A stretch of DNA of 64,000 nucleotides from Candidatus Doudnabacteria bacterium (GCA_039931165.1 JBDTSL010000004.1:21028-85027), one strand, 5' to 3'; counted from the stretch's first letter, positions 31,110 to 36,869 are shown. Notes: generated from the sequence alone by a model not told the origin. Translations and numbers: made by a program.

Positions 31110-31243
31110 CTGCTTAATTCTACCTTACTCTTGACAATATCGCCAAAAAAGAGTACAATTAATTGTTAAGTAAATAACAGACTCGATACCAAAATTGTCA
31201 GATTTTTTGACCCATTTGGATGCTCGGGTCAAAGAAATAATTT

Positions 31244-32626
31244 ATGAACGCATCCGCGTCAACAGCCTCTTTCGAGGGCCTGGGCATCGCCCCGCAATTG
31301 CTCGAAATCCTGGTAAAATTAAACTTCACGATCCCGACCCCGATCCAACTGCAATCCATTCCGATAGCGATTGAAGGCAAGGACGTCATGGGTATCGCCC
31401 AAACCGGCACGGGCAAGACCCTGGCTTTTGGTATCCCCATGATCCAAAGACTGGCCCAAAATAAAGGCCGGGGCCTGGTGATCCTGCCGACACGGGAGCT
31501 GGCCTTGCAGGTAGATGAAGCCATCCAAAAAATAGGACGCTCTCTGGGACTTAAAACCGCGGTGCTTATCGGCGGCGAACCGATTAACAGGCAGATTCGG
31601 TCATTGCGCCAAAACCCTCACATTATCATCGGTACTCCCGGTCGCATGAACGACCATTTGGAGCAAAAAACACTTGATCTGTCATCTGTCAACATTTTGG
31701 TGCTTGATGAAGCGGACAGGATGCTGGATATGGGCTTCGAACCGCAGATCAGAAGGATCCTGGCAAAAATCCCAAAAACCCGGCAGACTATGCTGTTCTC
31801 AGCCACAATGCCCGACCAGATCGTCCGGATTGCGACAGCCTATATGTCTCTGCCGATCCGGATCGAGGTCGCCCCCGCCGGTTCCACTGTCCGGGAGATA
31901 TCCCAGGAGGTGTTCTTTGTAAATCGCGATAAAAAACTGTCTTTGCTGGAAAAAGTGCTGGCTGAGCATAAAGGTTCGGTTCTGGTTTTCACCCGGACCA
32001 AATACGGCGCTAAAAAAATCGCGCACGCGGTGCGGAACATGAGGCACACCTCTTCCGAAATTCATTCCAACCGTTCTCTGGGCCAGCGCAAAGAAGCTCT
32101 GGAAGGGTTTAAGATCGGCCGGTATAAAGTTTTGGTCGCGACAGACATTGCCGCCCGCGGCATTGACGTGACCGGCATCGAACTGGTGATCAACTATGAC
32201 CTGCCTGAAAATCCGGAAGATTACGTCCACCGCATCGGCAGAACCGGCCGCGCCGGACTGTCGGGCAAGGCAGTATCATTTGCCACTCCTGACCAGCGCC
32301 ATGACGTCAGATCAATTGAGAGACTGATAAAGATCAGCCTGCCGATCAAGCAGTCGCCAGAATTGGCCTCTGGCTTTGCGCCGGCAGACCAGCCCAGGCA
32401 TAGTTACGTCAGACAAATGGGGCGTCAGTCTTCCGACAGGCCCCGACGGGACGGACCTCCTTCCAGGTTCGGCAAGTCAAGAAATAAGTTCAAACAGCGT
32501 GAACAATTTCCCCGTCACAAGCCGGGAGCGCCGCTGGATCAAGGTTTCGATGCCAATCACCGAAAACCAACCGGCAATTTTGACTCGAACCGCATTTCTT
32601 ACAGGAATGACCGGGATTCATTCTAA
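31244..32626 (+). CDS. DEAD-box ATP-dependent RNA helicase with R/G-rich C-terminal tail
   Basis: AQTGTGKT (motif I), DEAD, SAT and HRIGRTGRAG motifs. Confidence 0.9.
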   Translation: MNASASTASFEGLGIAPQLLEILVKLNFTIPTPIQLQSIPIAIEGKDVMGIAQTGTGKTLAFGIPMIQRLAQNKGRGLVILPTRELALQVDEAIQKIGRSLGLKTAVLIGGEPINRQIRSLRQNPHIIIGTPGRMNDHLEQKTLDLSSVNILVLDEADRMLDMGFEPQIRRILAKIPKTRQTMLFSATMPDQIVRIATAYMSLPIRIEVAPAGSTVREISQEVFFVNRDKKLSLLEKVLAEHKGSVLVFTRTKYGAKKIAHAVRNMRHTSSEIHSNRSLGQRKEALEGFKIGRYKVLVATDIAARGIDVTGIELVINYDLPENPEDYVHRIGRTGRAGLSGKAVSFATPDQRHDVRSIERLIKISLPIKQSPELASGFAPADQPRHSYVRQMGRQSSDRPRRDGPPSRFGKSRNKFKQREQFPRHKPGAPLDQGFDANHRKPTGNFDSNRISYRNDRDSF

Positions 32627-32721
32627 TAATAAAAGCTGCGCATTTCAAATTTCTTTTTGGCTAACGAGTGTGATAAAAATAGTTATCCCGGGTTATACCC
32701 GGTTATGCACCGTTTTTGACT

Positions 32722-32755
32722 TTGACAAAAAATAGCGAAGTTCTATGATGAATTT
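32722..32755 (+). promoter_or_regulatory. sigma-70-like promoter (TTGACA-N16-TATGAT)
   Basis: tttgacTTGACAaaaaatagcgaagttcTATGATgaa in a gene-free interval; downstream are AAAGGAG plus a 17-codon ORF and a terminator. Confidence 0.4.
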
Positions 32756-32896
32756 GAAAGGAGAGAACAAATAATGCAGCAGGACTTAATAACGCATAGA
32801 GCGCGTTTCCTCTGTAGCGAAAACTAGCAGGCCGGTTTAGGCCTTCAAATAAAAAAATAATTATCGCATACCTATGGAAACATCGCACTTTTGCTA

Positions 32897-32924
32897 AAAG
32901 CCGCACGATACCGTGCGGCTTTTA
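32897..32924. terminator. bidirectional rho-independent terminator
   Basis: aaaagccgcacgataccgtgcggctttt, a perfect 10-bp stem flanked by A4/T4. Confidence 0.6.
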
Positions 32925-32935
32925 GGTTGCGGCAA

Positions 32936-33310
32936 TTATTGGATAAGTTGCTGAATGTCCGAAGGTTTGATCTGCTGAACTTGATTCAGGCTGACTCCGC
33001 TTGAAGAAAAAATCACTGTGGCCAATATCACGAAGAGTAGGATCGATATCGCGGTTAGCGCCACACAAATCAACGCGGCTTCCTGGCCGTCTTCCTTGCC
33101 GCTAAAATAAAATTTAACCGCAAAAAATATGCCGACAGGAGGAACGGCTACCGAAATTATGTAGGCCCATTTTTTTTGTTTATCGGTCAGCTGGTCGGCC
33201 TTCCCGCTCTGCATGGCCATAATGGCCAAGGCCGCAACATCAATTTTTTTGTCCTGCTGGGCCAGTCTTTTGTAGGTTTCGAGCTCTTGAGCCAGTTTAT
33301 CTTCATTCAT
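32936..33310 (-). CDS. hypothetical membrane protein
   Basis: 124 aa; two hydrophobic helices in the C-terminal half. Confidence 0.3.
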   Translation of the reverse strand: MNEDKLAQELETYKRLAQQDKKIDVAALAIMAMQSGKADQLTDKQKKWAYIISVAVPPVGIFFAVKFYFSGKEDGQEAALICVALTAISILLFVILATVIFSSSGVSLNQVQQIKPSDIQQLIQ

Positions 33311-35601: not shown

Positions 35602-36036
35602 CTAATTTTTAGCCTGAGCCAGGGCTGAAGCCAAAGTTTGCCTGTAAGCCAGACTTGATTGCGTTGCCCCAGAAACGATGTTCACATTCGCGCTCTGGAC
35701 TTGGATTGCCTCCTGCTTCATGATCGGCATTGCCTGAGTATTGATTTGAATAGAGGTGCGGCGATCGTTGGGATATTGCAGAAATATAATATCGGTTATT
35801 TTACCGCCTGAAATTACGGCATTAACCTGAAAAGGTCCATAAAAAGCATCGGCAACCATACCCATATACTGTCCGTCCTTATATAGAGCCTTGGTCTGCG
35901 GAGTCGGATAAACTGGAGTTTGATCCGTAGGCGTTGTGGTAACGGTATTGTTGGTACTTTTTAAAATGCTTCTCTCGTAAGCGACATAAACAACAAATGC
36001 CAGCACAACTGTCAGCGACAAAAGGAATTTTTTCAT
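35602..36036 (-). CDS. FMN-binding domain protein (extracytoplasmic, flavinylation target candidate)
   Basis: Signal/TM at the N-terminus; FMN_bind-like C-terminus with ..IVSGATQSSLAY (S/T-G-A-T flavinylation motif). Confidence 0.6.
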   Translation of the reverse strand: MKKFLLSLTVVLAFVVYVAYERSILKSTNNTVTTTPTDQTPVYPTPQTKALYKDGQYMGMVADAFYGPFQVNAVISGGKITDIIFLQYPNDRRTSIQINTQAMPIMKQEAIQVQSANVNIVSGATQSSLAYRQTLASALAQAKN

Positions 36037-36795: not shown

Positions 36796-36869
36796 TGGCT
36801 GGGGAGGAAGGATTCGAACCTTCGATGATGGATTCAGAGTCCATTGCCTTACCACTTGGCTACTCCCCA
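36796..36869 (-). tRNA. tRNA-Gln (anticodon CUG)
   Basis: Minus-strand TGGGGAGTAGCCAAGTGGTAAGGCAATGGACTCTGAATCCATCATCGAAGGTTCGAATCCTTCCTCCCCAGCCA folds as a cloverleaf: 7-bp acceptor with U1-A72, D-arm GCC/GGC, anticodon stem ATGGA/TCCAT with loop CTCTGAA, T-arm GAAGG-TTCGAAT-CCTTC, and encoded CCA. Confidence 0.8.

What the first reader, a model, noticed from the sequence alone, without database searches (positions are those of the whole stretch)
32640..32935. Orphan promoter - RBS - 17-codon ORF - terminator unit (candidate sRNA or micro-protein gene)
In a 300-bp gap with no ORF of 60 aa or more, the plus strand shows TTGACT/TTGACA(-35)-N16-TATGAT(-10), then AAAGGAGAG and ATG...TAG encoding MQQDLITHRARFLCSEN. 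This is followed by a GGCCGGTTTAGGCC hairpin and a strong bidirectional terminator (aaaagccgcacgataccgtgcggctttt). The predicted transcript would be about 170 nt. Upstream are direct repeats CCCGGGTTAT/CCCGGTTAT (32686-32706). The unit is not attached to any flanking gene: the helicase ends at 32626 on the same strand and the next gene is convergent.
Basis: seen in the sequence. Interest (0 to 1): 0.5.

Follow-up and report, generated by a model that had tools for sequence, protein, structure and literature searches.

The report
Conserved small RNA gene in Doudnabacteria
The gap holds a real, self-contained gene for a folded RNA of about 170 nt with a ribosome-binding site and a tiny, poorly conserved reading frame, found so far only in close relatives of this uncultured ultra-small (Candidatus Doudnabacteria) bacterium, matching no described RNA family and of unknown function.

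Summary
The window has -35 TTGACA (32722-27), N16, -10 TATGAT (32744-49), GAAAGGAGAG (32756-65), a 17-codon ORF (32774-32827), a hairpin (32829-44) and a bidirectional terminator (32895-32924). The window comes from a Candidatus Doudnabacteria MAG. I found the same unit in six other distinct sequences from related uncultured bacteria. All keep the promoter, the spacing from the -10 to GAAAGG, the SD, the AUG and the terminator. Covariation supports a long-range helix P1 (32794-32810 with 32876-32894), the hairpin P2 and the terminator: 90.7% of cells are paired against 28-46% when partners are slid, and 14 of 31 pairs change on both sides. The unit stays intact when either neighbour changes (L002, L134), so it is an independent gene. 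The ORF is always present (9-17 codons), but only about the first 7 codons stay in register. Beyond that, the conserved nucleotides are read in all three phases and the stop codon moves. Selection there therefore acts on the RNA, not on a peptide. No Rfam family matches. Best reading: a new structured small RNA whose 5' end loads a ribosome. A regulatory role is inferred, and neither expression nor any target has been shown.

The parts
32722..32727 (+). -35 hexamer TTGACA, preceded by a tandem TTGACT at 32716-21
   Evidence: scores the promoter 11 of 12. One search finds 6 such sites in the window against 0.96 expected. A TTGACA, TTGACG, TTTACA or TTTCAA hexamer sits at the same distance upstream in all 7 members.
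32744..32749 (+). -10 hexamer TATGAT, 16-nt spacer
   Evidence: The homologues carry TATTAT, TATAAT, TATGAT, TACGAT or TAAAAT. In each, the hexamer lies 6-7 nt before the conserved GAAAGG.
32756..32927 (+). Predicted transcript of about 170 nt, equal to the full-length covariance-model match
   Evidence: 160.3 bits, E = 2.7e-35, model positions 1-174 of 174. The start site at G32756 is inferred from the -10 spacing and has not been measured.
32756..32765 (+). 5'-terminal Shine-Dalgarno sequence GAAAGGAGAG
   Evidence: AGGA is invariant and AGGAGAG is kept in 5 of 7. It is predicted to be mostly unpaired in 6 of 7 members. Similar SD sequences, AAAGGAGG and GAAAGGAGC, precede ordinary genes in the window.
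32774..32827 (+). 17-codon ORF MQQDLITHRARFLCSEN, stop codon included
   Evidence: The AUG is invariant in 7 of 7, 5-10 nt after GGAG or AGGA. Homologous ORFs are 9-17 codons. Their phase relative to the conserved nucleotides differs after about codon 7.
32794..32810 (+). P1 long-range helix, 5' strand (GCAUAGAGCGCGUUUCC), lying inside the ORF
   Evidence: In the core helix, 89.5% of cells are paired and 4 of 11 pairs change on both sides. MFE folds of 5 of 7 single sequences recover it.
32817..32820 (+). Possible P1b, 5' strand (GCGA), pairing with UCGC at 32864-67
   Evidence: Read from the sequences and from the MFE folds. L081 has UGAUG/CAUCA at this place. L087 and L002 have UUUG.GGC/GCC.CAAA. 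Column counts could not test it because the alignment is not in register there.
32822..32825 (+). Candidate pseudoknot strand AACU, pairing with GGUU (32834-37) in the P2 loop
   Evidence: 96% of cells are paired and one pair covaries (U-A, C-G, U.G). This is not distinguishable from the shuffles (73 of 500), so it is a lead only.
32829..32844 (+). P2 hairpin AGGCC-gguuua-GGCCU
   Evidence: Two of 5 pairs change on both sides (G-C to A-U, C-G to G-C).
32864..32867 (+). Possible P1b, 3' strand (UCGC), within the A-rich 3' side of the internal loop
   Evidence: plus reading of the sequences.
32876..32894 (+). P1 long-range helix, 3' strand (GGAAACAUCGCACUUUUGC). AUGGA is invariant.
32895..32924 (.). 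Bidirectional intrinsic terminator, shared with the convergent 124-aa gene (stop codon at 32936)
   Evidence: In one search it is 100% paired across the 7 members, and 8 of 12 pairs change on both sides.
32687..32706 (+). CCCGGGTTAT / CCCGGTTAT repeat, also readable as the CCGGGT/ACCCGG inverted repeat. Not part of the conserved unit.
   Evidence: It is absent from all homologues.

Best explanation
This is a free-standing gene for a structured small RNA of about 165-175 nt. The family is new and has been seen only in one subclade of Candidatus Doudnabacteria.

**Shown:**
- A near-consensus sigma-70-type promoter, conserved in sequence and in position.
- A conserved 5' stretch carrying a strong Shine-Dalgarno sequence and an AUG, predicted to be mostly single-stranded.
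- A body folded as a long irregular stem: P1, probably P1b, and the apical hairpin P2, with an A-rich 3' side.
- A bidirectional intrinsic terminator.
- Covariation in all three main helices.
- The unit stays intact when either neighbouring gene is replaced.

**Inferred:**
- Transcription starts at about G32756, so the RNA begins with its own ribosome-binding site.
- A 30S subunit or ribosome loads there and translates 9-17 codons into the 5' strand of P1.
- What is selected is ribosome loading together with the folded RNA body, not the peptide. Ribosome loading could protect the 5' end, or translation could remodel P1.
- The RNA then acts as a regulatory RNA, either by base-pairing or by binding a protein.

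In five of seven loci it also forms the 3' end of the helicase mRNA. It would then work like a 3'-UTR-embedded sRNA that has its own promoter. The target and the physiological role are unknown.
For: **Homologues.** Seven distinct members were found: window, L001, L081 (identical in L082-85), L087, L002, L134 and L132 (identical in L133). Covariance-model scores are 91-165 bits, against 27.6 bits or less for everything else.

**Promoter.** It scores 11 of 12. Sites this good are about six times over-represented in the window. It is conserved, with fixed spacing to GAAAGG, in all 7.

**Structure.**
- On the plain MAFFT alignment A6, 88.8% of cells pair against 27-49% when partners are slid, and 11 pairs change on both sides against 0-3.
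- On the model-fitted alignment A7, 90.7% pair against 28-46%, 14 of 31 pairs change on both sides, and 0 of 500 shuffles reach any measure.
- Five G.U cells would be mismatches on the other strand, which favours the + strand.
- Fold z-scores are -3.9 and -3.7.

**Independence.** In L002 the unit lies between a divergent MgsA-type ATPase gene and a convergent, unrelated 208-aa gene. In L134 it lies 3.7 kb from the helicase, next to the 124-aa gene.

**Against a functional peptide.** ORF length ranges from 9 to 17 codons. The conserved GUGUGC/GUUUCC block is read in all three phases. The stop codons fall at four different alignment positions.

**For a working ribosome-binding site.**
- The AUG is invariant and AGGA is invariant.
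- Spacer indels keep the spacing at 5-10 nt.
- The SD is predicted unpaired.
- Other genes in the window use the same SD.
Against: - There is no expression data of any kind. The start site, the transcript and its translation are all inferred.
- The family is narrow: seven related sequences whose helicases are 75-83% identical. The covariation counts are therefore not independent events.
- A7 was fitted to the model structure, although the MAFFT alignment A6 gives the same answer.
- The invariant SD and AUG, the in-register first seven codons and some third-position variation (CAG/CAA, GUA/GUU/GUG) are also what a real coding start would show. A role for the peptide's N-terminus is not excluded.
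- No target or partner was found. The duplex search against the helicase leader was uninformative.
- Syntenic relatives lack the unit (L086, L088 and the P0030 contig). It is therefore dispensable.
Confidence: 0.55

Rival explanations
1. It is a micro-protein gene. The 9-17-residue peptide, consensus start M-Q-Q-D-V-T-Q, is the functional product. The downstream helices only stabilise the tiny mRNA.
For: The SD and AUG are invariant and correctly spaced. The first seven or so codons are in register in 6 of 7 members. Some substitutions there are synonymous (CAG/CAA, GAC/GAU, GUA/GUU/GUG; alignment). From my own knowledge, proteins this small are known, for example the 15-aa SpfP encoded in Spot 42.
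Against: - ORF length ranges from 9 to 17 codons. The C-terminal halves are unrelated, and the conserved nucleotides are read in three phases.
- L132 shares only the first two residues, MQ, with the others.
- AAGGACGU and AGGAUG are conserved between members but sit in different frames.
- The excess of third-position variation is not significant. By my hand count of departures from the commonest base, positions 3, 1 and 2 give 20, 14 and 11.
- The covarying helices P1 and P2 show selection on the RNA itself.
Confidence: 0.15
2. It is a passive 3'-end module. The region is just the structured 3' UTR and shared terminator of the helicase and the convergent 124-aa gene, and the promoter-like and RBS-like words have no function.
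For: I saw no terminator-like hairpin between the helicase stop and the unit in L001, L081, L087 and L132 when reading the gap sequences. The terminator is bidirectional and abuts the stop codon of the convergent gene.
Against: - The -35, the -10 and their spacing to GAAAGG are conserved in all 7.
- In L002 and L134 the upstream gene is on the other strand. The unit cannot be anyone's 3' UTR there, yet it is complete.
- Relatives with the same gene pair manage with gaps of only 7-35 nt.
Confidence: 0.12
3. It is a protein or ribosome decoy. The single-stranded 5' region carries GGA words that titrate a GGA-reading RNA-binding protein (CsrA-like) or the 30S subunit. The words are AAAGGAG, GGAUGC and ARGGAYG, with AUGGA in P1. 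The helicase leader, whose hairpin loop carries UUGGAUG, would be a competing target.
For: Each RNA has 3-6 GGA words, three of them about 10-12 nt apart in the unpaired 5' region. GGAUGC is kept in 6 of 7 members. The helicase 5' leader has a conserved hairpin with UUGGA(U/C)G in its loop in 7 of 8 loci. csrA is reported among the highly expressed genes of groundwater ultra-small prokaryotes (PMC9938205).
Against: - None of the unit's GGA words lies in a hairpin loop.
- GGA-1 and GGA-2 are explained more simply as the SD and the start-codon context.
- tblastn found no CsrA or Hfq in the window or in the loci held at that point (about 0.95 Mb). That is not a whole genome.
- The resemblance to the CsrA consensus is recalled from memory and was not tested.
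Confidence: 0.1
4. It is a cis-antisense or type-I-toxin-antitoxin-like partner of the convergent 124-aa two-helix membrane protein gene.
For: The unit is convergent with the 124-aa gene in 6 of 7 members and stays with it in L134 after a rearrangement. The protein has two hydrophobic segments.
Against: - The overlap is limited to the shared terminator hairpin.
- From my own knowledge, 124 aa is far larger than type I toxins.
- L002 has the unit next to an unrelated gene.
- The 124-aa gene occurs without the unit in L086, L088, L089 and the P0030 contig.
Confidence: 0.05

Closest known systems
Dual-function small RNAs with a very short ORF, such as Spot 42/SpfP (15 aa), SgrS/SgrT, RNAIII/delta-haemolysin and SR1/SR1P (named from my own knowledge)
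   Same: An RNA of 100-500 nt with its own promoter and an intrinsic terminator. It has a structured body and an SD-led short ORF inside the RNA.
   Different: In the known cases the peptide is conserved and has been shown to act. Here the peptide is not conserved beyond about 7 residues and nothing has been tested. There is no sequence or Rfam relation.
3'-UTR-embedded sRNAs with their own promoter that share the mRNA's terminator, such as DapZ and MicL in enterobacteria (from my own knowledge)
   Same: In 5 of 7 loci the unit follows the helicase coding sequence on the same strand, with no terminator seen in between. It has its own promoter and supplies the terminator.
   Different: It lies wholly downstream of the coding sequence. 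It is free-standing in L002 and L134. There is no Hfq context and no known target.
STAB-SD 5' mRNA stabilisers of Bacillus, such as GAAAGGAGG in the cryIIIA leader (from my own knowledge)
   Same: A strong SD-like sequence, GAAAGGAG, sits at or next to the 5' end of the transcript, where a bound 30S subunit would block 5' decay.
   Different: As I recall, STAB-SD is not coupled to a start codon. Here an invariant AUG follows at functional spacing. Stabilisation was not tested.
Leader-peptide transcription attenuators (trpL, pheL, hisL type)
   Same: A short ORF of 9-17 codons overlaps the first strand of a helix and is followed by an intrinsic terminator.
   Different: No member has a downstream gene on the same strand. 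There are no runs of regulatory codons. No credible antiterminator exists: only CUUUU/AAAAG, 5 bp, links the P1 3' strand to the terminator.
CsrB/RsmY/RsmZ-type protein-sequestering RNAs
   Same: A small terminator-ended RNA with several GGA words.
   Different: It has only 3-6 GGA words, none in hairpin loops. Whether the genome has CsrA is unknown.

Membership tests
Any Rfam 15 family | Covariance-model score at or above the family's gathering threshold | tested here: not met
   the only hit in the whole window is tRNA-Gln. One search gives only sub-threshold chance hits, mostly on the terminator; no family hits the unit consistently across the six homologous loci.
Independent bacterial small RNA gene | Own promoter | tested here: met
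   The consensus match is 11 of 12 and such sites are over-represented. The promoter is conserved in all 7 with fixed spacing. This is sequence evidence only, and no start site has been mapped.
Independent bacterial small RNA gene | Intrinsic terminator maintained by compensatory change | tested here: met
   100% paired, with 8 of 12 pairs changed on both sides.
Independent bacterial small RNA gene | Conserved secondary structure supported by covariation outside the terminator | tested here: met
   P1 has 4 of 11 pairs, and P2 2 of 5 pairs, with changes on both sides. Slid controls pair in 28-49% of cells, against 89-91% for the structure.
Independent bacterial small RNA gene | Retained as a unit when the neighbours change | tested here: met
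   L002 and L134.
Independent bacterial small RNA gene | A discrete transcript is detected | not testable with these tools
   No RNA-seq data are available.
Dual-function sRNA or micro-protein gene | SD and start codon conserved at functional spacing | tested here: met
   the AUG is kept in 7 of 7, AGGA in 7 of 7, and the spacing is 5-10 nt.
Dual-function sRNA or micro-protein gene | Conserved peptide (length, frame and residues) | tested here: not met
   length is 9-17 residues, the phase differs after about codon 7, and the stop codon falls at four alignment positions.
Dual-function sRNA or micro-protein gene | The ORF is translated | not testable with these tools
   This needs toeprinting, reporter fusions or ribosome profiling.
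Leader-peptide attenuator | A regulated gene downstream on the same strand | tested here: not met
   The downstream gene is convergent in all 7 members.
Leader-peptide attenuator | An alternative antiterminator pairing, and regulatory codons in the ORF | tested here: not met
   By inspection, only a 5-bp CUUUU/AAAAG pairing could compete with the terminator. The peptides have no repeated codons.
Type I toxin-antitoxin with a 3'-overlapping antitoxin RNA (txpA/RatA or bsrG/SR4 type) | A small hydrophobic toxin, extended antisense overlap, and strict co-occurrence | tested here: not met
   The neighbour is 124 aa. The overlap is only the terminator. The unit occurs without the gene in L002. The gene occurs without the unit in L086, L088 and L089.
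CsrB/Rsm-type sponge | Many GGA words exposed in hairpin loops or single strands | tested here: inconclusive
   There are 3-6 GGA words per RNA. Three lie in the unpaired 5' region and none in a hairpin loop.
CsrB/Rsm-type sponge | CsrA is encoded in the same genome | not testable with these tools
   Only 64 kb of the genome is available. tblastn is negative in the window and in the loci held at that point. csrA is reported in groundwater ultra-small prokaryotes in general.
6S RNA | The 5' and 3' ends pair in a closing stem around a large central bubble, and the RNA matches Rfam 6S | tested here: not met
   No Rfam hit. About 35 nt at the 5' end is unpaired and the 3' end is a terminator hairpin.
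3'-UTR-embedded sRNA with its own promoter (DapZ/MicL type) | Lies downstream of a coding sequence on the same strand with no terminator in between, has an internal promoter, and shares the terminator | tested here: inconclusive
   This holds in 5 of 7 loci by reading the gap sequences. It does not hold in L002 and L134, where the upstream gene is divergent.

The most novel reading that the evidence does not exclude
The RNA could be a translation-coupled riboregulator of an ultra-small CPR bacterium. In this reading it begins exactly with a strong ribosome-binding site. Each round of translation of the throw-away ORF melts helix P1 and switches the body (P1b, P2 and the A-rich loop) between two states. 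Alternatively, the GGA-rich 5' end competes with the helicase leader's UUGGAUG loop for one RNA-binding protein. Either way, the RNA would report translational capacity or titrate a global regulator, in a lineage where I found no published RNA regulator.
Probability: 0.15. Interest if true: 0.65.

Novelty: new member of a known kind. Interest (0 to 1): 0.42.

Why it matters
In the held paper library, no paper mentions both Doudnabacteria and 'small RNA', and a broader Patescibacteria search listed nothing relevant. These organisms have small genomes and are thought to carry little regulation. This is a clean, covariation-supported small RNA gene with a consensus promoter, a ribosome-binding 5' end and a defined fold. 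It gives a concrete object to look for in existing groundwater metatranscriptomes. It can also be added to RNA family databases and tested in vitro for ribosome binding and for partners. The practical impact is modest, because the family is narrow, dispensable in close relatives and of unknown function.

Tried and rejected
- **Rfam, three ways**: nothing.
- **Metagenome-wide DNA pattern** built from the invariant blocks: 39 loci, all chance matches by profile search. The pattern was too strict for the real JGI members L132 and L134, which were found later through the helicase protein.
- **Second copy in the window, or members in more distant Doudnabacteria and other CPR loci:** none, with model R1 under default filters or model R2 with filters off. 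The L004 hit of 23.9 bits is an unrelated promoter, 22-codon ORF and terminator unit.
- **Antisense 67-aa ORF (32703-32906):** not conserved, and not related to the PGPGW small gene that occupies this gap in L086 and L088.
- **Leader-peptide attenuation:** no downstream gene and no antiterminator.
- **Type I toxin-antitoxin pairing with the 124-aa gene:** co-occurrence is not strict.
- **Pairing between the RNA and the helicase 5' leader** (RNAduplex against shuffles): no signal. The method is also poorly suited to sequences this long.
- **Upstream word AGTTATGCAC as a shared operator:** its count in the window is at chance level and the other copies have no promoter context.
- **GAAAGGAGAG elsewhere in the window:** chance level.
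- **Start-codon sequestration by GAUGC/GCAUC:** present in only 4 of 7, and the change in the window is not compensatory.
- **Pseudoknot AACY/RGUU:** compatible but not significant.
- **CsrA and Hfq by tblastn** in the window and the loci held at that point: none found.
- **Contigs of P0023, P0024 and P0030:** no DNA was returned. Only the gap sizes are known: 250, 274 and 6 nt.

Full report
**1. The observation**

- Tandem TTGACT (32716-21) and TTGACA (32722-27), a 16-nt spacer, then TATGAT (32744-49).
- GAAAGGAGAG (32756-65).
- ATG 32774 through TAG 32825-27, encoding MQQDLITHRARFLCSEN.
- A hairpin at 32829-44.
- A bidirectional terminator at 32895-32924, with a 12-13-bp stem, an A-tract before it and a U-tract after it.
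- The CCCGGGTTAT/CCCGGTTAT words at 32687-32706.

The flanks are a DEAD-box helicase gene (31244-32626, +) and a convergent 124-aa ORF (32936-33310, -).

The promoter scores 11 of 12. The window has six sites that good on both strands, against 0.96 expected, and one of them is the helicase promoter. The predicted transcript folds better than all 200 shuffles, with z = -3.9.

Two details of the finding need correcting. First, a 67-aa GTG-start ORF lies antisense across the gap. It is not conserved and is unrelated to the small gene found at this position in other genomes. Second, the unit is probably also reached by helicase transcripts (section 3).

**2. Origin and relatives**

The two flanking proteins are 100% identical to proteins of a Candidatus Doudnabacteria MAG, on a 91-kb contig. 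This is a member of the Candidate Phyla Radiation.

I retrieved loci through the helicase and through the 124-aa protein. I then searched them by BLAST, by a nucleotide profile and by a covariance model. This gave six further distinct copies of the unit:
- L001 1394-1567
- L081 3211-3380 (-), identical in L082-85
- L087 3583-3757 (-)
- L002 7419-7582
- L134 6162-6325
- L132 3838-4002, identical in L133

Members score 91-165 bits, and nothing else exceeds 27.6 bits. The next-best hits are mostly terminators.

Several searches found no further copy:
- The window has no second copy.
- More distant Doudnabacteria (L004-L006) and other CPR loci have none.
- Syntenic relatives L086 and L088 lack it. 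Their helicase-to-neighbour gaps are about 30 nt.
- The P0030 contig lacks it. Its helicase-to-124-aa gap is 6 nt.

Two contigs whose DNA could not be fetched have gaps of 250 and 274 nt and may carry the unit.

**3. It is a self-contained gene**

All seven members keep a -35 (TTGACA, TTGACG, TTTACA or TTTCAA) and a -10 (TATGAT, TATTAT, TATAAT, TACGAT or TAAAAT). In each, the -10 lies 6-7 nt before GAAAGG. The RNA therefore very probably starts at the G of GAAAGGAG. This is inferred and has not been measured.

- In five loci the unit sits between the helicase and the convergent 124-aa gene.
- In L134 it sits 3.7 kb from the helicase, next to the 124-aa gene, behind divergent genes.
- In L002 it lies between a divergent MgsA-type ATPase gene and a convergent, unrelated 208-aa gene.

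The unit survives replacement of either neighbour. In all seven members the downstream gene is convergent, so it is never a leader.

In L001, L081, L087 and L132 I saw no terminator-like hairpin between the helicase stop and the unit's promoter. There the unit also forms the 3' end of the helicase mRNA.

**4. The RNA fold**

RNAalifold on two and then four sequences found a long-range helix joining the two best-conserved internal blocks. These are GCAUAGAGCGCGUUUCC (32794-32810) and GGAAACAUCGCACUUUUGC (32876-32894).

I tested a model of P1, the apical hairpin P2 and the terminator.
- On the plain MAFFT alignment of five sequences, 88.8% of cells are paired, against 27-49% when partners are slid. 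Eleven pairs change on both sides, against 0-3.
- On the model-fitted alignment of all seven, 90.7% are paired, against 28-46%. Fourteen of 31 pairs change on both sides, and no shuffle reaches any of the five measures.
- By helix, the pairs changed on both sides are 8 of 12 in the terminator, 4 of 11 in the P1 core and 2 of 5 in P2.
- Five G.U cells would be mismatches on the other strand. Together with the promoter, this fixes the + strand.

Single-sequence MFE folds recover P1 in five of seven members. They also suggest an extra helix P1b between P1 and P2. P1b reads GCGA/UCGC in four members, UGAUG/CAUCA in L081 and UUUG.GGC/GCC.CAAA in L087 and L002. I could not test P1b by columns, because the alignment is out of register there.

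The invariant AAC before P2 can pair with the nearly invariant GUU in the P2 loop. One pair covaries, but the test is not significant.

The resulting picture has three parts. About 35 unpaired nucleotides at the 5' end carry the SD and the AUG. Next comes a roughly 100-nt irregular stem-loop with an A-rich 3' side. The terminator follows.

**5. RNA or peptide?**

The AUG is invariant. AGGA is invariant, and AGGAGAG is kept in five of seven. Indels in the spacer keep the SD-AUG distance at 5-10 nt. The SD is predicted to be mostly unpaired. Ordinary genes in the window use AAAGGAGG-type SD sequences, although many others look leaderless. This looks like a working ribosome-binding site.

The seven peptides, however, are poorly conserved:

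| Member | Peptide | Length |
|---|---|---|
| window | MQQDLITHRARFLCSEN | 17 |
| L001 | MHNGVTQVCVSHKSDEL | 17 |
| L081 | MQQKVSQKCAFPKLMN | 16 |
| L087 | MQQDVTAHMCSFP | 13 |
| L002 | MQQRMKRVCASP | 12 |
| L134 | MLKDVPQVGCS | 11 |
| L132 | MQIRTYTIV | 9 |

- Only the first seven or so codons are in register, in 6 of 7 members.
- At the conserved P1 block the codon phases are 2, 0, 1, 1, 1, 2, 2.
- The stop codons fall at four different alignment positions.
- The recurring Cys comes from GUGUGC, which yields Cys in two different frames.
- AAGGACGU and AGGAUG are shared between members in different frames.

From about codon 8 onward, selection therefore acts on the RNA. A role for the N-terminal heptapeptide is not excluded. 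By my hand count, third positions vary somewhat more than first and second, but not significantly.

**6. How it most likely works**

*Shown:* a conserved promoter, a conserved 5' ribosome-binding site, a covarying fold, a terminator, and independence from the neighbours.

*Inferred:* the RNA is made from its own promoter and starts with its SD. A ribosome binds and reads a short throw-away frame into P1. The selected features are ribosome loading and the folded body. Ribosome loading could protect the 5' end, as STAB-SD elements do, or translation could open P1. The body would then act as a regulatory RNA.

I put about 0.55 on this reading. The rivals are:
- a functional micro-protein, 0.15
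- a passive 3'-UTR and terminator module, 0.12
- a decoy for a GGA-reading protein or for ribosomes, 0.10
- an antisense or toxin-antitoxin-like partner of the 124-aa gene, 0.05

The decoy idea rests on three observations. There are three GGA words about 10-12 nt apart in the 5' region. The helicase leader has a conserved hairpin with UUGGA(U/C)G in its loop. One paper reports csrA as highly expressed in groundwater ultra-small prokaryotes (PMC9938205). It remains a lead. None of the unit's GGA words is in a loop, and no CsrA was found in the DNA available.

**7. Comparison with known systems**

No Rfam family matches the window or the homologues. In the held paper library, no paper mentions both Doudnabacteria and 'small RNA', and a broader Patescibacteria search listed nothing relevant.

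In architecture it resembles dual-function small RNAs with very short ORFs, such as Spot 42/SpfP. It also resembles 3'-UTR-embedded sRNAs that have their own promoter, and 5' SD stabilisers. It fails the tests for a leader-peptide attenuator, for a type I toxin-antitoxin pair and for 6S RNA.

**8. Verdict**

This is a real, conserved, previously undescribed small RNA gene. It is a new member of a known kind, and its function is unknown. Interest is moderate. It is among the few concrete RNA-regulator candidates in a CPR lineage, but the family is narrow and dispensable in close relatives, and nothing about its expression has been measured.

Noticed in passing
window 31131-31243; hairpin about 31205-31230: The helicase gene has a consensus promoter (TTGACA, N17, TACAAT) and a leader of about 78 nt that is conserved across Doudnabacteria loci. 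The conserved parts are GACUCGAUACCAAAAUUGUC and a hairpin, GACCC-aUUUGGAUGCUc-GGGUC. The hairpin loop carries UUGGA(U/C)G in 7 of 8 loci. No Rfam match. It may be an unannotated cis-regulatory element of the DEAD-box helicase.
   Followed up: partly
window, e.g. gene starts at 36036(-), 36130(+), 31109(-), 18835(-), 8639(+): Many genes have a -10-like hexamer (TATAAT, TAGAAT or TATACT) ending about 6-8 nt before the ATG and no SD. This suggests frequent leaderless mRNAs alongside SD-led genes.
   Followed up: no
window 32936-33310 (-): The convergent 124-aa protein has two hydrophobic segments and no Pfam match. Its family has only 21 members in the 5.8-billion-protein set, and those with a source label are Doudnabacteria-like. 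Its gene neighbours vary between relatives: an NQR/RnfD-like plus ApbE plus FMN_bind operon here, and aldehyde dehydrogenase with TPP-enzyme genes, glutamine synthetase or L19/TsaE elsewhere.
   Followed up: partly
L086 3372-3542, L088 3381-3569, L087 3378-3575: In some relatives a 56-65-aa gene follows the 124-aa gene. It gives a weak PGPGW Pfam hit in L086 and L088. In those two loci it fills the gap where the RNA unit sits in the window. L087 has both a 65-aa gene, with no Pfam hit, and the unit.
   Followed up: no
L004 5930-6110 (-): This is an unrelated small unit: TTGACA...TATGCT, AGAAAGGAA, ATG, a 22-codon ORF (MFDGTKPNGDKPTPAPAPEPKK) and a strong terminator. It lies about 0.7 kb from the helicase in another Doudnabacteria MAG and was picked up only through its terminator.
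   Followed up: no
window 32701-32710; L087 and L132 at the equivalent place: The word (A/G)GTTATGCAC lies about 10 nt upstream of the unit's -35 in three members and is degenerate in two more. Copies elsewhere in the window are at chance level and have no promoter context.
   Followed up: yes
window 36796-36869 (-): tRNA-Gln (CTG), the only Rfam or ARAGORN hit in the 64-kb window.
   Followed up: no
L003 / L088 (DATJFX010000066.1): This contig is labelled Methylomirabilota in its record. It carries the Doudnabacteria-type helicase (72% identity) and the 124-aa gene in the same order. The bin label is probably wrong.
   Followed up: no
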